Source: Vicinamibacterales bacterium
GTDB taxonomy: Bacteria; Acidobacteriota; Vicinamibacteria; Vicinamibacterales; 2-12-FULL-66-21
DNA: 64,000 nt
Assembly: GCA_035758845.1 (NCBI GenBank)
Contig: DASTVZ010000012.1
Location: forward strand, 35,097-99,096
Reading direction: 5' to 3'
The notes beneath the pieces were generated by a model that was given only the letters and a program-made list of their open reading frames with translations, searched no databases and was not told the DNA's origin. Both the position numbers and the translations under genes were made by a program. Position 1 is the first letter of the stretch. Each line of letters starts with the position of its first letter. Shown here piece by piece: positions 56,436-63,451 of this stretch.

Positions 56436-56473
56436 AAAAAAAAACCCGCCGGCGTTTTCAAGCCGGCGGGTTT
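56436..56473 (-). terminator. Intrinsic terminator (attenuator) of the Thr/Ile leader
   Basis: Minus strand: CCCGCCGGC-ttgaaaac-GCCGGCGGG, followed by T9. About 100 nt upstream of hom. Confidence 0.8.
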
Positions 56474-56498
56474 GGTCGAGCGCGATTTCTTTGTGAAC

Positions 56499-56594
56499 TC
56501 AGATTGCGTTCGCCAACCGACCACCGGCATGAGACGTTCGCGGCGTGCGAATTCGCATGCACATCGGGCACGTGATGGTGATCGTCGCAAACAT
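56499..56594 (-). CDS. Thr/Ile-rich leader peptide (31 aa)
   Basis: Not in the ORF track. ATG TTT GCG ACG ATC ACC ATC ACG TGC CCG ... TGA translates to MFATITITCPMCMRIRTPRTSHAGGRLANAI. Confidence 0.7.
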   Translation of the reverse strand: MFATITITCPMCMRIRTPRTSHAGGRLANAI

Positions 56595-56636
56595 GCAGTC
56601 TCGAGGGCACGATCTTCAGACCGTGCCGAAACAGCG

Positions 56637-56666
56637 AGTATAGAAGTCGGGCAATGCGAACGTCAA
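56637..56666 (-). promoter_or_regulatory. Sigma-70-type promoter of the thr leader
   Basis: Minus strand: TTGACG (56666-56661), 18 nt, TATACT (56642-56637). Confidence 0.6.
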
Positions 56667-57004
56667 GTCGACAGCGTTCACCGTCACGCTGAAACGTTAC
56701 CGCCGGTTACGTCGAAGGTACGAAGAAGCGAAGGTGTCGTTCGCATGCAGTTCTCGGACATCCTGACGCGCGAAGCGCGTGGCGGCGGACGCCTTGTCTC
56801 TGCCCGGCTGGCGCACTGGGCTCCAGCCGGGGTCATCTTGTCATTTCAGACATTTAGCTGTTCTTCGATTCTTCAATTCTTCGCCGTAAGACCAGTGGGT
56901 ACGTCTCAGCTCGACAGTGGGCGCTTCTTTGCTATTAGCGTACTTTATGATGTTGAAAACATTATAAATTTGACTTCATTGCCATGACCGGTCAGGATAA
57001 ACCC

Positions 57005-57082
57005 ATGCGCTTTCGCGTACCTGCCGTCGTCGGTGTCGTAGGCCGGATTAGCGGCCGGCCGGAGACCGCTCCAGGCGAGTGA
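57005..57082 (+). CDS. Val-rich leader peptide (25 aa)
   Basis: Not in the ORF track. AGGA SD lies 7 nt upstream. ATG CGC TTT CGC GTA CCT GCC GTC GTC GGT GTC GTA GGC ... TGA translates to MRFRVPAVVGVVGRISGRPETAPGE. An in-frame ATG at 56984 would add 7 aa. Confidence 0.6.
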   Translation: MRFRVPAVVGVVGRISGRPETAPGE

Positions 57083-57112
57083 ACGGCGCCACAATTCAGT
57101 AAAGAGACACCA

Positions 57113-57152
57113 GGGGCCGTCACTCGAACCAGAGGCGACGGCCCTTTCCTTT
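57113..57152 (+). terminator. Terminator-like hairpin (attenuator) upstream of pheA-ilv
   Basis: GGGCCGTC (57114-57121) pairs with GACGGCCC (57137-57144), followed by TTTCCTTT. It ends 46 nt before the pheA GTG. Confidence 0.55.
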
Positions 57153-57197
57153 AGGGGCGGGCCCGACGGTCCGTCGCGGTGAGGAGGAAGGGTCAGC

Positions 57198-58064
57198 GTG
57201 CGAGTCGCGTATCAAGGGGAACCAGGCGCTTTCAGTGAAGCCGCCGTGCTGCGGCTGCTGCCGGATGCTGAGCCGCGCCCATACCCGACCTTCGACGAGG
57301 TGTTCGATGCCGTCTCAAACGGGTCGGTCAACCTCGGTGTGGTGCCGATCGAAAACTCCATCGGCGGATCGATTCACCGCAATTACGACCTGCTGGTGCA
57401 GCGCGAGCTCTCAATCGTCGGCGAAGTGCAGGTGCCGGTGGTGCACAACCTGCTCGCGCTCCCCGGAGTGCGCCTCGAGGAAGTTCGCCGAGTGCTGTCG
57501 CATCCTCAGGCGTTGGCCCAGTGCGCGGCGTTCCTGCGCGGGCTCGAACACGTCGAGGCGATTGCGACCTACGACACCGCGGGCAGCGCAAAGATGGTGC
57601 GCGACGAACAGCGTCGCGACACGGCGGCCATCGCGTCCGAGCGTGCCGGCACCCTCTTCGGGCTGGAATCGCTGCGCGCCGGCATTCAGGACTACGACGA
57701 CAACATCACACGCTTTCTCGCCATCTCGCGTCAGCGCGTGCCGCTCGGCACACCGGACAAGACCAGCCTCGTCTTCACACTGAAGAGTGCTCCAGGAGCG
57801 CTGTTCAAAGCGTTGAGCGTGTTTGCGCTCCGCGACATCGATCTGTCCAAGCTTGAATCCCGTCCCGTGCCTGGACGTCCGTGGGAATACCTGTTCTATC
57901 TCGACGTCGCCGCCGCGCGAGAGGATCTGCAGTGCGCCCGCGCCATGGTGCACCTCGCTGAATTTGCGCCATCGCTTCGTACCCTGGGGTCGTACCCGCG
58001 ATGGCGCGAGCCGGAGGCGAACGCGGAAAACGTTCCGGCGCAGGAAGGAGCGCGCCGTGGCTGA
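57198..58064 (+). CDS. pheA: Prephenate dehydratase (with ACT domain)
   Basis: 288 aa, GTG start after GAGGAGGA. Contains [24 protein letters not shown] and an ACT region ending ESRP. Confidence 0.9.
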
Positions 58065-59745
58065 CGACACCGCGCGACCACTGAAGTGGCAAAGCGGCGG
58101 AATCACTGACGGTCCAAGTCGCGCGCCCGCGCGCGCCATGCTGCACGCATCCGGATTCACCGCTGCGGATCTCAATCGTCCGCTTGTGGGTGTCGCGAAC
58201 ACCTGGATCGAGATAGGCCCGTGTAACTATCACCTGCGAGATCTCGCCGCGTCGGTGAAGAGCGGCATCCGCGCGGCGGGCGGGACGCCGATGGAGTTCA
58301 ACACGGTCTCGATTTCCGACGGGATCACGATGGGCTCAGCCGGCATGCGGACGTCGCTGGTGAGCCGCGAAGTGATCGCGGATTCGATCGAACTGGTGGC
58401 GCGCGGCAACCTCTTCGACGCGATCGTCGTCCTCGTTGGCTGCGACAAGACGATTCCCGGCGGAGCGATGGCGCTCGCCCGGCTCAACATTCCCGGTTTG
58501 ATCCTCTACGGCGGGTCGATTGCGCCGGGCCGGTTCGCCGGTCACGACGTCACGATCCAGGACGTGTTCGAGGCAGTCGGCGCGCACGCCGCCGGACGCA
58601 TGACCGATGCCGATCTTCGCGACATCGAGACGCACGCATGCCCTGGCGCCGGGGCATGCGGCGGTCAGTTCACCGCAAACACAATGGCCACGGCGTGTGA
58701 ATTCCTCGGGCTCGCACCCATGGGAAGCGGCGATGTGCCGGCCGTCGATGCCTCGAAGAGTTCCGTCGCAGAACGGACCGGCGCCATGGTGATGGACGTC
58801 CTGAAACGCGGCGTCCGTCCGTCACACGTCGTTACCCGCGAATCACTCGAGAACGCGATTGCGGCAGTGGCCGCTACCGGCGGTTCCACCAATGCGGTGC
58901 TTCACCTGATGGCGATCGCGCGCGAAGCTGGCGTCAAACTGGCGCTCGAGGATTTCGATCGGATCAGCGCGCGCGTGCCATTGCTGGCGGATCTGAAACC
59001 GGGCGGACGGTTTGTCGCCGTCGATCTCCATCGCGCAGGTGGTACGCGTCTGGTCGCGCAGCGCCTGCAGGCGGCAGGAGCGCTGCACGCGAGCGCAATG
59101 ACCGTCACCGGCAAGACGATCGGTGAAGAGGCCGCGCAGGCAAAGGAAACACCTGGACAGGAAGTCGTTCGCCCCGTGTCGTCGCCGCTGAAACCGACAG
59201 GTGGTCTGGTTATTCTCCGCGGCAACCTCGCTCCCGACGGCTGCGTCGTCAAGGTTGCCGGACACGATTTCGGAATTCATCGCGGACCGGCACGTGTGTT
59301 CGAAGGCGAAGAAGCCGCCTTCGCAGCGGTGCAGGCCGGTCGCATCAAAGCCGGCGACGTCGTCGTCATCCGCCATGAAGGCCCGAAAGGCGGACCTGGG
59401 ATGCGCGAAATGCTTGGCGTCACCGGGGCCATTGTCGGCGCCGGCCTGGGGGAGTCGGTCGCGCTGGTGACCGACGGACGCTTCTCTGGCGCCACGCATG
59501 GCCTGATGGCCGGCCATGTTGCCCCCGAAGCCGCGGCAGGCGGACCGATCGCGGCGGTTCACGAGGGGGACATGATCACGCTCGATCTGCCGGCGAGAGG
59601 CATTCACGTCGATATTTCTGATAGCGAGATGGCCGAGCGCTTGCGCCAGTATCGGCCGCAACCGCCGCGGTTCACCAGCGGTGTGATGGCGAAATACGCA
59701 CGGCTTGTATCATCCGCTGCTGAGGGCGCTGTAACGAGTGCGTAG
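58057..59745 (+). CDS. ilvD: Dihydroxy-acid dehydratase
   Basis: ORF 57823..59745 trimmed to GTG 58057 after AGGAAGGAG. Contains [18 protein letters not shown] and TDGRFSG. Confidence 0.92.
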
Positions 59746-59764
59746 CTGTCAGTTTTGGGCTTTT

Positions 59765-59905
59765 GGTTTTGCGTTCTAGGTTTTGCGTTCTCGGTTCTGG
59801 TTTTCGTTTTGGTTTGCGGGTCCGTGCGGGATTTTGGCTTTCCGCTGGAACTCACAACCAGGAACGACAACCAAGAACGAAAACGAAGAACGGAGAACGC
59901 AAAAC
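59765..59905. repeat. Long imperfect inverted repeat in the ilvD-ilvB spacer
   Basis: Left arm 59780-59814 (GTTTTGCGTTCTCGGTTCTGGTTTTCGTTTTGGTT) pairs with right arm 59869-59905. A direct partial copy of the left arm lies at 59765-59777. Confidence 0.8.
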
Positions 59906-59927
59906 TAAAAACAGGTAAGGGACACAA

Positions 59928-61640
59928 ATGAAGTTAACAGGTGCACAAATCCTTTGGGAATGCCTGGTTCGCGAGGGCGTGACGGATATCTTCGGATATC
60001 CGGGCGGCGCGATCCTGCCGGCCTACGACGCAATGCTGGACTATCCGATCCGGCACGTGCTCGTGCGGCACGAACAAGGAGCGACGCACATGGCCGACGG
60101 CTACGCGCGCGCGAGTGGCGGCGTCGGTGTCGCGATTGCCACATCAGGCCCGGGCGCGACCAACATGGTCACCGGTATTGCCACCGCGATGCTGGACTCC
60201 TCGCCCATCGTCTGCATCACCGGGCAAGTTGGCAGCCGTTTGATCGGCAGCGACGCCTTCCAGGAAATCGACATCACCGGCATCACGCTGCCGGTAACGA
60301 AGCACAACTACCTGGTCACGCGCGCGGAGGATATTGCCAAGGCTGTGCGCGAAGCATTCGTCATCGCGAAGTCGGGCAGGCCGGGACCGGTCCTCATCGA
60401 CATCACGAAGGATGCGCAGCAGTCGTCGTGCGAGTTCGACTGGGACGCGGCCGCGCCCTCAGTGCCTGGGTGGCGATCCGCCCCCGAAACCCCCGACACG
60501 TCCCTGGCCCATGCCGCAGCCATCCTGAACGCGGCCGAACGCCCGGTCATTCTCGCGGGTCACGGAGTGATGATCTCTGGCGCCATGGACGAACTGCGCG
60601 CCCTCGCCGAACGCGCGCAGATCCCCGTGGCGATGACGCTGCTCGGGATTGGCTGCATGCCGGCGTCGCATCAGCTCAACATCGGGATGATGGGCATGCA
60701 CGGCGAAGCGTGGGTCAATCACGCAATCCAGGAAGCCGATCTTCTGATCGCTGCCGGCATGCGCTTCGATGACCGGGTGACCGGAAACCTCAAGACCTAC
60801 GCACCCCACGCCAAGAAGATTCACATCGAGATCGACCCCTCGGAAATCAACAAGAACGTTGCGGTGGACGCAGCACTCATCGGTGATCTCCGATCGGTCC
60901 TGAAACGCCTGTTACCGTCTATCGCGCAGGGTAATCGCGAGAAATGGGTTGGGCACATCAACGAACTCAAGGGGGACTCCGCCGTGCGCGACATTCAGTC
61001 GCTGCCCGATGATGGGCATCTCTACGCGGCGCATGTGATCAACGACCTCTGGCGGGCGACGCGGAGCACGGAAACGATCGTGGTCACCGACGTCGGCCAG
61101 CACCAGATGTGGGAAGCGCAGTACTACCACCACGAGGCGCCGCGATCGCTGATCACCTCGGGTGGACTGGGGACGATGGGATTTGCCGTGCCGGCGGCGA
61201 TCGGCGCCAAGCGCGCGCGGCCGGACGCCGAAGTCTGGGCAATCGTCGGCGACGGTGGATTCCAGATGACGATGTGCGAGCTGGCCACGGCAGTGCAGGA
61301 AGGCATTGCCGTCAAGGTCGGCATCATCAACAACGGTTATCTGGGCATGGTGCGGCAGTGGCAGGAGTTCTTCTACGAGCGTCGCTACGCGGCCACCCCG
61401 CTCTCCGGTCCCGACTTCGTCAAGCTGGCTGAAGCATTCGGTATTCGAGGCATTGGCGTCTCCAAGCGCGCGGAAGTCAATCCGGCAGTTGAAGAGGCGC
61501 GCAATCATGCAGGTCCCGTGGTCGTCGACTTCCGAGTGGAACAGGAAGATACCGTCTATCCGATGGTGCCGGCCGGCGCCGACCTGCACGCGATGATCCG
61601 CCGACCCAATCCGATCGTCGAAACCGGCGCGGACGTGTAA
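59928..61640 (+). CDS. ilvB: Acetolactate synthase large subunit
   Basis: 570 aa with IFGYPGGAILP and ThDP motif GGLGTMGFAVPAAIGA...GDGGFQM...NN. Confidence 0.93.
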   Translation: MKLTGAQILWECLVREGVTDIFGYPGGAILPAYDAMLDYPIRHVLVRHEQGATHMADGYARASGGVGVAIATSGPGATNMVTGIATAMLDSSPIVCITGQVGSRLIGSDAFQEIDITGITLPVTKHNYLVTRAEDIAKAVREAFVIAKSGRPGPVLIDITKDAQQSSCEFDWDAAAPSVPGWRSAPETPDTSLAHAAAILNAAERPVILAGHGVMISGAMDELRALAERAQIPVAMTLLGIGCMPASHQLNIGMMGMHGEAWVNHAIQEADLLIAAGMRFDDRVTGNLKTYAPHAKKIHIEIDPSEINKNVAVDAALIGDLRSVLKRLLPSIAQGNREKWVGHINELKGDSAVRDIQSLPDDGHLYAAHVINDLWRATRSTETIVVTDVGQHQMWEAQYYHHEAPRSLITSGGLGTMGFAVPAAIGAKRARPDAEVWAIVGDGGFQMTMCELATAVQEGIAVKVGIINNGYLGMVRQWQEFFYERRYAATPLSGPDFVKLAEAFGIRGIGVSKRAEVNPAVEEARNHAGPVVVDFRVEQEDTVYPMVPAGADLHAMIRRPNPIVETGADV

Positions 61641-61650
61641 CGAGGCCCCC

Positions 61651-62205
61651 ATGAAGATGCATATTTTCACTGTCTACGTCGAGGACCTGCCCGGCGTCCT
61701 GAACCGCGTCGCGTCACTGTTCCGCCGGCGCAACTTCAACATCATTTCGCTTGCCGTCGGACACAGCGAGACGCCCGGCGTTTCCCGCATGACCATCGTC
61801 GTCCAGACTGATGCTGGCGGCGCGCAGCGCATAGCGGCGCACTTGTACAAGTTGATCAACGTGCTCCGTGTCGAGGACATCACCGACCGTCCTGCCGTCG
61901 TTCGCGATCTCGCATTGATTAAAGTGAGCGCGGATCGGGAACACCGTCCTCCGCTCATGCAGCTGGCGGAAGTCTTCGGCGCCCGCGTCGTCGACGTCGC
62001 GCCGGAGTCAATCGTGATCGAGATGGCCGGATCCGAGGCAAAGATCGACGGCTTGCTCGAAGTTCTGCGACCGTACGGTGTGCTCGAACTGGTTCGGACT
62101 GGTCGCGTCGCCATGTCGCGCGGCGTCGGCAGCGGATCGCCGGCGGCCGGACACGGACCGGCTGTGATTCCCGATACGCAGACGGGAGTGTCGTATTCCG
62201 TCTAG
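61651..62205 (+). CDS. ilvN: Acetolactate synthase small (regulatory) subunit
   Basis: 184 aa with ACT domain HIFTVYVEDLPGVLNRVASLFRRRNFNIISLAVG. Confidence 0.9.
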   Translation: MKMHIFTVYVEDLPGVLNRVASLFRRRNFNIISLAVGHSETPGVSRMTIVVQTDAGGAQRIAAHLYKLINVLRVEDITDRPAVVRDLALIKVSADREHRPPLMQLAEVFGARVVDVAPESIVIEMAGSEAKIDGLLEVLRPYGVLELVRTGRVAMSRGVGSGSPAAGHGPAVIPDTQTGVSYSV

Positions 62206-62224
62206 AGTGCTCCTGACAACAACC

Positions 62225-62368
62225 TTCACTGTCACGCAGCATCCCTGTCCTCGAGAAAACAGGAGAAAGGAGAAGAGAGAACAAGAATCTGATTTCCTAA
62301 AGACTTAGAATTCTCCTTTCTCCTGTCTCCTGTGATCTCTTAAGACAGGAATGCAGCGTGACAGTGAA
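62225..62368. repeat. Nested inverted repeat (composite hairpin) in the ilvN-ilvC spacer
   Basis: Outer arms 62225-62249 and 62344-62368 match at 23/25 positions. Inner arms 62259-62274 and 62311-62326 match at 16/16. Confidence 0.85.
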
Positions 62369-62431
62369 TACCGAGAGTTAGAACGCGAAACCTGAAACTG
62401 CCACAATTCCTGATTTCCCGGAGGCTTCCCA

Positions 62432-63451
<1,020 letters not shown>

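What the first reader, a model, noticed from the sequence alone, without database searches (positions are those of the whole stretch)
56984..57152. Val-rich leader peptide and attenuator upstream of pheA-ilvD-ilvBNC
The ORF MRFRVPAVVGVVGRISGRPETAPGE has AGGA 7 nt upstream and 5 Val within codons 5-12. GGUGUCGU (codons 10-12) pairs with ACGGCGCC, which lies directly after the stop codon (8 bp including 2 G.U). ACGGCGCC can alternatively pair with GGGGCCGU (7/8), the 5' arm of the hairpin GGGCCGTC...GACGGCCC followed by TTTCCTTT. The next genes are pheA, ilvD, ilvB, ilvN and ilvC. The terminator is weaker than the other two (8-bp stem, 15-nt loop, interrupted T-run), and I could not place a convincing -35 box.
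Basis: partly seen in the sequence, partly recalled or inferred. Interest (0 to 1): 0.62.

Follow-up and report, generated by a model that had tools for sequence, protein, structure and literature searches.

The report
Valine leader-peptide attenuator before pheA-ilv
A 25-codon valine-rich mini-gene followed by a switchable transcription stop signal sits in front of the pheA-ilvD-ilvBNC genes of a soil acidobacterium; it most likely raises their expression when valine or isoleucine runs short, a textbook mechanism that is not catalogued for this phylum.

Summary

The interpretation, a ribosome-mediated transcription attenuator, is well supported.
- The leader ORF, its Val run and the terminator are conserved in 16 of 21 same-genus loci and in other families of the order.
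CGAGUGAACGGCGCC (57076-57090, holding the UGA stop) pairs with GGGGCCGUCACUCG (57113-57126). This helix covaries across 56 diverse loci.
- The same terminator/antiterminator cassette occurs in 145 of 301 genomes of the order and in other Acidobacteriota lineages.
- Leader codons track the downstream gene: Val before ilvD and pheA-ilv, Thr before hom, Ile before ileS and ilvA.

Two corrections. The 'AGGA' lies inside the predicted -10 box, and a good promoter exists (TTGACT, 17 nt, CAGGAT). The promoter-to-ATG distance is fixed at 29-31 nt in 16 relatives, which points to a leaderless leader mRNA, as in Corynebacterium glutamicum ilvBNC.

Caveats. No transcript data could be obtained. The window's T-run is the weakest in the genus. 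Equilibrium folding does not by itself give the switch, so control must be kinetic.

No Rfam family matches. Verdict: a new member of a known kind, of moderate interest.

The parts
56930..56969 (+). Conserved AT-rich block directly upstream of the -35 box (UP-element-like or a regulator site)
   Evidence...TTATGAWGTTGAAAACATTATAAAT is nearly invariant in 16 same-genus loci, while the promoter spacer varies. The 20-mer is unique in the genome at up to 3 mismatches. Its function is inferred.
56970..56975 (+). -35 box TTGACT
   Evidence: Invariant in 16 genus loci. The simple scanner missed it because the -10 box is non-canonical.
   Evidence: Relatives have CACCAT, CACGAT or CAACAT at the same place. 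A2 and T6 are kept, but an AGGA is not.
57005..57082 (+). Leader ORF, 25 codons plus UGA: MRFRVPAVVGVVGRISGRPETAPGE. The ATG lies 6 nt after the -10 box, so the mRNA is probably leaderless.
   Evidence: The ORF is conserved in 16 of 21 genus loci. Variable columns by codon position 1/2/3 are 7/11/18. Codons 1-16 show 120 synonymous against 123 non-synonymous codon differences; codons 17-25 show 25 against 108. The distance from -35 to ATG is fixed at 29-31 nt.
57026..57040 (+). Regulatory Val codons 8, 9, 11 and 12 (plus Val5 at 57017-57019 and Ile15 at 57047-57049). Segment 1 core is GGUGUCGU, 57032-57039.
   Evidence: In all 11 leaders of the 25-to-29-codon class except L009, the energetically best partner of segment 2 within the upstream leader overlaps the Val or branched-chain run; six of them use codons 9-14 or beyond.
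57041..57076 (+). Two spacer hairpins (GGCCGGAUUAGCGGCC, and GCCGGAGACCGCUCCAGGC); possible RNA polymerase pause or spacer
   Evidence: Both are present in all folds. GGAG/CUCC in the window becomes GGAU/AUCC in relatives, a compensatory change. A pause role is inferred.
57076..57090 (+). Segment 2: 5' strand of the antiterminator, CGAGUGAACGGCGCC, with the UGA stop codon (57080-57082) inside it
   Evidence: It pairs with 57113-57126 (13 bp, one bulge, one mismatch; -23 to -25 kcal/mol). For covariation.
57113..57126 (+). Segment 3: GGGGCCGUCACUCG, shared by antiterminator and terminator
57113..57152 (+). Intrinsic terminator: stem 57114-57121 / 57137-57144 (plus G57113.U57145 and an inner CUC/GAG), then UUUCCUUU at 57145-57152
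   Evidence: The hairpin is -22.2 kcal/mol. It is the RNAalifold consensus of 18 leaders. Relatives have better T-runs, such as TTTTTGCTTTT.
57181..57200 (+). pheA ribosome-binding site GAGGAGGAAGGG and GTG start (57198)
   Evidence: In the whole-leader MFE the stretch CCCUUUCCUUU pairs with this SD; this pairing is not clearly conserved.
57198..63451 (+). Controlled operon pheA-ilvD-ilvB-ilvN-ilvC (pheA and ilvD overlap in GTGGCTGA at 58058-58064)
   Evidence: Pfam; sequence.

Best explanation
This is a classical ribosome-mediated (leader-peptide) transcription attenuator for the pheA-ilvD-ilvBNC operon of a Vicinamibacterales (Acidobacteriota) genome.

Proposed course of events:
1. Transcription starts from TTGACT-17 nt-CAGGAT, at or next to the A of ATG 57005. 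This start point is inferred and implies a leaderless mRNA.
2. A ribosome translates the 25-codon leader.
3. When Val-tRNA (and probably Ile-tRNA) is plentiful, the ribosome runs to the UGA stop at 57080-57082. That codon lies inside segment 2 (57076-57090), so the ribosome covers segment 2.
4. Segment 3 (57113-57126) is then free to pair with segment 4 (57137-57144). The terminator forms and RNA polymerase stops at the U-run (57145-57152).
5. When charged Val-tRNA is scarce, the ribosome stalls on Val codons 8-12 (57026-57040). This melts the segment 1:2 pairing and leaves segment 2 uncovered.
6. Segment 2 pairs with segment 3 as soon as segment 3 emerges. The terminator cannot form in time, and polymerase reads on into pheA-ilvD-ilvBNC.

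Shown here: the sequence elements, their conservation, covariation of both helices, and the match between leader codons and downstream genes.
Inferred: the transcription start, translation of the ORF, kinetic competition between the helices, and the response to valine.
For: 1. All elements are present at the stated coordinates.
2. The ORF, Val run and terminator are conserved in 16 of 21 same-genus pheA loci and in two other families.
3. Third-position variation dominates, and the N-terminal half, which holds the Val run, keeps its amino acids.
4. Antiterminator on 18 leaders: 90% of cells paired, 5 pairs with compensatory changes, against 25-42% paired when the partner is slid.
5. Antiterminator on 56 order-wide cores: 92.8% paired, 5 of 9 pairs and 31 cells with double changes, against 16-56% when slid. 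Examples: CGAGUGAC:GUCACUCG, CGGAUGAU:AUCAUCCG, CGAAUGAU:AUCAUUCG.
6. Terminator: 92.1% paired, and it is the RNAalifold consensus.
7. The cassette is found in 145 of 301 genomes of the order and in other Acidobacteriota lineages.
8. Among 90 loci the leader's codons follow the downstream gene. Val runs occur in 24 of 26 ilvD and at least 24 of 35 pheA loci, and in 0 of 6 hom loci. Thr runs occur in 4 of 6 hom loci. Leaders are Ile-rich before ileS and ilvA.
9. Folding with ribosome footprints, before segment 4 is made: a stall at codons 9, 11 or 12 gives 12 of 13 antiterminator pairs, and a ribosome at the stop codon gives 0.
10. The experimentally studied C. glutamicum ilvBNC attenuator works this way, with a leaderless Val-rich leader (PMC11857589).
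Against: - There are no transcript data.
- The window's U-run (UUUCCUUU) is interrupted and is the weakest in the genus, so termination may be inefficient.
- At full-length equilibrium the terminator is the minimum-energy fold even with a ribosome stalled on the Val codons. Without any ribosome the minimum-energy fold is the antiterminator, with the Val run paired to segment 4. The switch therefore works only under kinetic, co-transcriptional control.
- Val makes up only 5 of 25 codons (binomial P about 0.04 on composition alone).
- Five same-genus genomes keep the promoter but lack the leader, so the device is dispensable.
Confidence: 0.85

Rival explanations
1. The hairpin and U-rich stretch act mainly on translation, not on transcription. 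The stretch CCCUUUCCUUU (57142-57152) sequesters the pheA Shine-Dalgarno GAGGAGGAAGGG (57181-57192), and leader translation or alternative pairing controls access to it.
For: The minimum-energy fold of 56990-57200 pairs GGCCCUUUCCUUU with GAGGAGGAAGGGUC. The window's interrupted T-run fits that SD better than it fits a canonical terminator tail.
Against: Relatives have ordinary long T-runs (TTTTTGCTTTT) and different SD sequences. The distance from terminator to pheA varies from 0 to 129 nt, so the pairing is not conserved. What is conserved is the hairpin plus U-run.
Confidence: 0.06
2. The ORF and terminator form a stand-alone small-protein or small-RNA gene, or an insulator terminator, with no regulatory switch.
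For: A promoter, a short ORF and a terminator together form a complete transcription unit. Five genus genomes do without it.
Against: This does not explain a conserved, covarying helix that competes with the terminator and contains the stop codon. It does not explain why leader codon content follows the downstream gene. The peptide's C-terminal half is free to change wherever RNA pairing is kept.
Confidence: 0.04
3. The attenuator is switched by a ligand, a tRNA or an RNA-binding protein (riboswitch, T-box or TRAP-like), and the ORF is incidental.
For: The cassette sequence (GGAUGAUG ... GGCCAUCAUCC) is unusually conserved across an order, as protein or ligand sites often are.
Against: No Rfam family matches, even at E up to 10. 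The conserved bases are all accounted for by the two competing helices and the embedded stop codon. The variable part is precisely the ORF, whose amino-acid content tracks the regulated gene.
Confidence: 0.04

Closest known systems
Corynebacterium glutamicum ilvBNC attenuator (leader peptide IlvL, MTIIRLVVVTARRLP; Morbach et al. 2000 as summarised in PMC11857589)
   Same: Both have a Val/Ile-rich short leader ORF and three competing hairpins (anti-antiterminator, antiterminator, terminator). In C. glutamicum the transcript starts one nucleotide from the leader start codon, with no ribosome-binding site. Both control ilvB, ilvN and ilvC. This is the closest match in mechanism, including the leaderless start inferred here.
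   Different: It belongs to a different phylum, and I saw no sequence similarity. Here the stop codon is embedded in the antiterminator strand. The operon begins with pheA-ilvD. The leader is 25 codons rather than 15. Nothing here has been tested experimentally.
Escherichia coli ilvBN (ivbL) and ilvGMEDA (ilvL) leader-peptide attenuators (textbook; own knowledge)
   Same: Both sense branched-chain amino acids through ribosome stalling on runs of Val, Ile or Leu codons. Both use mutually exclusive terminator and antiterminator hairpins ahead of ilv genes.
   Different: The E. coli leaders have a Shine-Dalgarno and a 5' UTR, and they are not related in sequence. The Rfam enterobacterial leader models do not match this stretch: the only leader-family hit was Trp_leader on the neighbouring thr leader at E 0.27, far below its threshold.
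The Thr/Ile leader before hom-thrC in the same intergenic region (window 56436-56666, minus strand)
   Same: It shows the same logic in the same organism: a promoter, the short ORF MFATITITCPM..., a strong terminator followed by T9, and then hom-thrC. An earlier scan note, e1-5033954, reached the same reading.
   Different: Its terminator sequence is different (AAACCCGCCGGC...), so in this genome it is not a copy of the ilv cassette. In other families of the order, the hom leader does use the ilv-type cassette.

Membership tests
Classical ribosome-mediated (leader-peptide) transcription attenuators | A short ORF upstream of a biosynthetic operon, enriched in codons for the pathway's product | tested here: met
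   5 Val and 1 Ile in 25 codons, with 4 Val in 5 consecutive codons. It is the only one of 243 small ORFs in the window with this property, and it is conserved in relatives.
Classical ribosome-mediated (leader-peptide) transcription attenuators | An intrinsic terminator between the leader ORF and the first structural gene | tested here: met
   Hairpin 57113-57145 (-22.2 kcal/mol) followed by UUUCCUUU. It is conserved, with better T-runs in relatives. The window's T-run is weak.
Classical ribosome-mediated (leader-peptide) transcription attenuators | A mutually exclusive antiterminator that shares a strand with the terminator | tested here: met
   57076-57090 pairs with 57113-57126. Paired cells are 90-93%, with compensatory changes in 5 pairs, against 16-56% when the partner is slid.
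Classical ribosome-mediated (leader-peptide) transcription attenuators | Geometry: a stall at the regulatory codons frees the antiterminator strand, and a ribosome at the stop codon blocks it | tested here: met
   Masked folds before segment 4 is made give 12 of 13 antiterminator pairs on a stall and 0 of 13 at the stop. The full-length equilibrium fold does not discriminate, so control must be kinetic.
Classical ribosome-mediated (leader-peptide) transcription attenuators | The leader is translated, and termination responds to supply of the amino acid | not testable with these tools
Rfam leader families (Thr_leader, Leu_leader, Trp_leader, His_leader and all other Rfam 15 families) | A match to the family covariance model at or near its gathering score | tested here: not met
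   There is no match on 57005-57152 at E up to 10, and none on nine related loci at E up to 0.1.
Acidobacteriota 'stop-codon-in-antiterminator' cassette (defined here; no Rfam match, and I found no description of it) | A leader stop codon inside the 5' strand of the antiterminator; segment 3 is GGCC(A/G)UCA...; segment 4 restores the pairing; then a U-run | tested here: met
   The window scores 44 bits (E 1.8e-7) against model R2, built from the order-wide cores. It is a derived variant: CGAGUGA(A)CGGC / GGCCGUCACUCG in place of CGGAUGAUG / GGCCAUCAUCCG.
Leaderless leader-peptide attenuators (C. glutamicum IlvL type) | The transcription start lies at, or within about 1 nt of, the leader start codon, and there is no Shine-Dalgarno | tested here: inconclusive
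   The distance from the -35 box to the ATG is fixed at 29-31 nt in 16 loci, the -10 box ends 6-7 nt before the ATG, and no SD is conserved. There are no transcript data.

The most novel reading that the evidence does not exclude
The window's element would be one derived copy of a phylum-wide, modular attenuator cassette in Acidobacteriota.
- A nearly invariant switch, (C)GGAUGAUG(UAG) ... GGCCAUCAUCC ... GGGUGAUGGCC-U run, carries stop codons in two reading frames (UGA and UAG/UAA) inside or just after the antiterminator strand.
- This switch is combined with interchangeable, often leaderless, leader ORFs.
- Their codon content has been rewritten to sense Val (ilvD, pheA-ilv), Thr (hom), Ile (ileS, ilvA) or Leu/Ile/Val (ilvE).
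- In front of ABC exporters and LysR regulators, the cassette may sense something other than amino-acid supply, for example drug-induced ribosome stalling.
Probability: 0.5. Interest if true: 0.55.

Novelty: new member of a known kind. Interest (0 to 1): 0.38.

Why it matters
Leader-peptide attenuation has been tested experimentally almost only in Proteobacteria, Actinobacteria and Firmicutes. Gene regulation in Acidobacteriota, one of the most abundant soil phyla, is almost unstudied, and most of its predicted attenuators have no assigned function (PMC2965389).

This locus, and the cassette family it belongs to, gives three things:
- a concrete, testable regulatory element for branched-chain amino-acid synthesis in Vicinamibacterales;
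- a candidate new RNA family for Rfam and for genome annotation, found in about half of the genomes sampled in the order and often in several copies per genome;
- a natural series in which one switch is paired with different sensor peptides, which is useful for studying how attenuators evolve and for engineering.

It also flags an unexplained but widespread coupling: pheA sits under valine control in 35 of the 90 loci examined.

Tried and rejected
1. Genome-collection scan with the 14-mer GGCCGTCACTCGAA. Of 120 hits, 119 were chance matches. The one real hit (L131) gave the phylum name, Acidobacteriota.
2. Riboswitch, T-box or known leader family. Rfam gave nothing on the element at the gathering threshold or at E up to 10, and nothing on nine relatives.
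3. The upstream in-frame ATG at 56984 as the start. Relatives do not conserve it, so I rejected it in favour of 57005.
4. AGGA as the Shine-Dalgarno. Rejected, because the position is CACCAT or CACGAT in relatives.
5. Equilibrium folding with a masked ribosome as proof of the switch. The full-length minimum-energy fold forms the terminator even when the ribosome is stalled, and forms the antiterminator with no ribosome. Only the co-transcriptional stage separates the states, so I report this as a caveat.
6. The Val run pairing with segment 4 (the minimum-energy fold). This appears only in the window's own fold. It follows from segments 1 and 3 both being complementary to segment 2, and I do not treat it as a separate feature.
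7. The AT-rich promoter block as a regulon motif. It is unique in the genome.
8. Sequencing runs for the transcription start and 3' ends.
9. Literature. I found no description of ilv attenuators in Acidobacteria.

Full report
OBSERVATION. I read 56700-57500 and located every element by exact string search.
- The ORF MRFRVPAVVGVVGRISGRPETAPGE runs from ATG 57005 to TGA 57080-57082.
- AGGA (56994-56997) lies 7 nt before the ATG.
- Val occupies codons 5, 8, 9, 11 and 12.
- GGUGUCGU (57032-57039) can pair with ACGGCGCC (57083-57090), giving 8 bp with 2 G.U.
- ACGGCGCC can pair with GGGGCCGU at 7 of 8 positions.
- The hairpin GGGCCGUC (57114-57121) / GACGGCCC (57137-57144) has a 15-nt loop and is followed by UUUCCUUU (57145-57152).
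- Pfam confirms pheA (57198-58064), ilvD (to 59745), ilvB, ilvN, ilvC and then a LysR regulator. hom and thrC diverge on the other strand.
- pheA and ilvD overlap in GTGGCTGA, so they are co-transcribed.

It is also unlikely to be chance. Among 243 ATG ORFs of 15-45 codons in the six frames of the window, this is the only one with at least 4 Val in 5 codons. Val makes up 8% of seven neighbouring proteins.

RELATIVES. A whole-genome search with PheA found orthologues in 35 of 41 related genomes. After re-orienting the minus-strand loci, 16 of 21 same-genus loci carry the same arrangement:
- a conserved promoter;
- a 25-, 29- or 39-codon ORF with Val pairs (for example MRFRVFAVVGVVGRIIGRPDTDPGK, or MHGLILSAGMRVVGAPGGTGGVVRRPVTIGAVVGFTPDE);
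- a stop codon;
- 22-31 nt of spacer;
- the hairpin GGGGCCGUCACUCGAA..GACGGCC and a T-run.

Two other families of the order have it as well (L021: VRALIFLARGVVVVIGGRF...; L023: ...FVTVVVTVTGIT...). The window has the weakest T-run of the set; most relatives have TTTTTGCTTTT.

Within nine 25-codon leaders, variable columns fall 7/11/18 on codon positions 1/2/3. Codons 1-16, which hold the Val run, show 120 synonymous against 123 non-synonymous codon differences. Codons 17-25 show 25 against 108. The N-terminal half therefore behaves as coding sequence. The C-terminal half is shaped by RNA pairing: GGAG/CUCC in the window becomes GGAU/AUCC in relatives.

THE SWITCH. The conserved loop of the terminator gave the key. 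CGAGUGA(A)CGGCGCC (57076-57090, with the UGA stop inside it) is complementary to GGGGCCGUCACUCG (57113-57126). That target is the 5' arm of the terminator plus part of its loop. The helix has 13 bp, one bulge and one mismatch, at about -23 to -25 kcal/mol. The terminator hairpin is -22 kcal/mol.

The helix changes sequence but keeps pairing in other families. L021 has CGGAUGAU:AUCAUCCG, and L023 has GCUGCGGAUG:CAUCCGCAGC. The counts are:

| Helix | Alignment | Cells paired | Compensatory changes | Paired when slid |
|---|---|---|---|---|
| Antiterminator | 18 leaders | 90% | 5 pairs | 25-42% |
| Antiterminator | 56 order-wide cores | 92.8% | 5 of 9 pairs, 31 cells | 16-56% |
| Terminator | 56 order-wide cores | 92.1% | 3 pairs | not compared |

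The terminator is also the RNAalifold consensus.

The best partner of segment 2 within the upstream leader overlaps the Val or branched-chain run in all 11 genus leaders of the 25-to-29-codon class except L009.

I then folded the transcript with a 30-nt ribosome footprint, at the stage where segment 3 has emerged and segment 4 has not:
- a stall at codons 9, 11 or 12 gives 12 of 13 antiterminator pairs;
- a ribosome at the stop codon gives 0.

At full length and equilibrium the picture is less tidy. The terminator wins even with a stalled ribosome. With no ribosome, the antiterminator wins, with the Val run paired to segment 4. The device therefore works only as a kinetic, co-transcriptional switch, as in other attenuators.

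PROMOTER AND START. Aligning the 16 genus loci on the ATG gives a clear footprint.
- An invariant AT-rich block plus TTGACT (56930-56975) comes first.
- A 17-nt spacer follows and is free to vary.
- Next is CA(C/G)(C/G)AT (56993-56998).
- Then come 6-7 variable nt and the ATG.
- The distance from the -35 box to the ATG is fixed at 29-31 nt.

The simplest reading is that transcription starts at or next to the A of the ATG, so the leader is translated from a leaderless mRNA. This is inferred. The same situation is documented for the C. glutamicum ilvBNC leader IlvL (PMC11857589).

A WIDER FAMILY. A covariance model of the 18 leaders hit 145 of 301 genomes of the order (67 of 120 genera), often 2-4 times per genome. 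I examined 90 loci.
- They share the core (C)GGAUGAUG(UAG) ... GGCCAUCAUCCG-loop-CGGGUGAUGGCC-U run.
- The window's genus carries a derived version of this core.
- The leader stop codon always lies in or just after the antiterminator strand. It is UGA in one frame and UAG/UAA in another.

The genes downstream are pheA (35 loci), ilvD (26), hom (6), LysR regulators (4), ABC exporters (4), a conserved membrane protein (3), ileS (2), ilvE (2), ilvA (1), one further ABC-transporter ATPase (1) and unidentified genes (6).

I chose the reading frame without reference to composition and then scored amino-acid runs:
- Val runs occur in 24 of 26 ilvD loci and at least 24 of 35 pheA loci, but in 0 of 6 hom loci;
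- Thr runs occur in 4 of 6 hom loci (for example MMPTTTGPTGPV);
- ileS has ...IITPIGIPIGIIGAGIRVG..., and ilvA has ...APAIIRIKAV....

That the sensor codons follow the regulated gene is the strongest argument that the ORFs are translated and do the sensing.

A second model, built on the cores, also found the cassette in other families of the phylum outside the order, again with Val/Ile/Leu-rich ORFs. The one organism name I could attach is 'Acidobacteriota bacterium' (L131). Earlier scan notes place the genome in Vicinamibacterales.

COMPARISON WITH WHAT IS KNOWN. Rfam 15 has no match on the element at the gathering threshold or at E up to 10, and none on nine relatives. Two full-text searches found no description of ilv attenuators in Acidobacteria. 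One paper notes that predicted attenuators in that phylum mostly lack assigned functions (PMC2965389).

In mechanism, this is the textbook device of E. coli ilvBN and ilvGMEDA. It is closest to C. glutamicum ilvBNC, which has a leaderless Val-rich leader and a three-hairpin model (PMC11857589). By sequence it belongs to none of those families. I therefore rate it a new member of a known kind.

Earlier notes of this scan describe the same cassette in three other genomes and reach the same reading. I treat them as agreement, not as evidence.

RIVALS.
- Translational control by pairing of CCCUUUCCUUU with the pheA SD. This pairing is not conserved.
- A stand-alone small gene or insulator terminator. 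This does not explain the covarying competing helix or the codon tracking.
- A ligand- or protein-operated attenuator. This is not supported by Rfam, and the part of the element that varies is the ORF itself.

OPEN POINTS.
- The transcription start, the real termination efficiency at UUUCCUUU, and the response to valine are all untested.
- It is unclear why pheA heads a Val-controlled operon across the order.
- The function of the 40-bp AT-rich block is unknown.
- It is unknown what the cassette senses in front of ABC exporters and LysR genes.

Noticed in passing
window 56930-56969: A block of about 40 bp, AT-rich (...TTATGATGTTGAAAACATTATAAAT), abuts the -35 box. It is nearly invariant in the genus and recognisable in other families, even where the leader ORF is absent. 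It is unique in this genome at up to 3 mismatches. It could be a UP element or a regulator operator, which would add a second layer of control.
   Followed up: partly
window 57198-58064 and 35 related loci (L151-L240): pheA (prephenate dehydratase plus ACT domain) is the first gene behind a Val-rich leader, not a Phe-rich one, in 35 of 90 loci across the order. In the window it is translationally coupled to ilvD (GTGGCTGA overlap, 58058-58064). I cannot explain why Phe synthesis should be under valine control.
   Followed up: partly
window 59745-59928 and 62205-62432: The ilvD-ilvB and ilvN-ilvC gaps hold long, low-complexity imperfect inverted repeats (GTTTTG/CAAAAC-type and CTCCT/AGGAG-type arms), with no T-run after them. 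Relatives carry comparable short tandem repeats between the terminator and pheA: in L002 and L003, GCCACGGAAGAACACGGA(T/C)TAACACGG occurs 2-3 times.
   Followed up: no
window 56436-56666, minus strand: A second attenuator serves the divergent hom-thrC genes. It has a promoter (TTGACG-18-TATACT), the ORF MFATITITCPMCMRIRTPRT..., and a 12-bp GC-rich hairpin followed by T9. It uses a different terminator from the ilv cassette.
   Followed up: partly
L012, L013, L016, L017, L020 (same genus): Five genus genomes keep the AT-rich block and the -35 box (as TGGACT there) upstream of pheA. They replace the leader ORF and terminator with about 70 nt of GC-rich sequence that has no ORF. These are natural loss variants of the attenuator.
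   Followed up: partly
L207, L221, L224, L227 (ABC exporter); L203 (ABC ATPase); L160, L163, L173, L225 (LysR): The same terminator/antiterminator cassette precedes MsbA-like ABC exporter genes, with leaders that lack an obvious amino-acid run (for example MFVHISLRAHDTMPVIGVWSHRRR). It also precedes LysR regulators, with Val/Leu-rich leaders. What these copies sense is unknown.
   Followed up: no
L175, L182 (ileS loci): The Ile-rich leader frame before ileS ends at UAA in ...GGGUGAUGUAA, a different frame from the UGA that most leaders use. In L175 the frame has no ATG, GTG or TTG start ahead of the Ile run. The conserved GAUGAUGUAG thus offers stop codons in two frames.
   Followed up: partly
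window 57142-57152 with 57181-57192: The window's interrupted T-run, CCCUUUCCUUU, is complementary (10 of 11 positions, counting G.U) to the pheA Shine-Dalgarno GAGGAGGAAGGG, and the two pair in the minimum-energy fold. This is not evidently conserved in relatives.
   Followed up: partly
L189, L200, L233: Cassettes with Leu/Ile/Val-rich leaders (for example ...VRVALVIRLVLISGIGLIPGPMTMGG) precede a conserved protein of about 170 aa (motif ...YCGYANGLLAYV...EQ(Y/F)WCPI(K/R)H...) of unknown function. I saw no link to amino-acid metabolism, and its function was not looked up.
   Followed up: no
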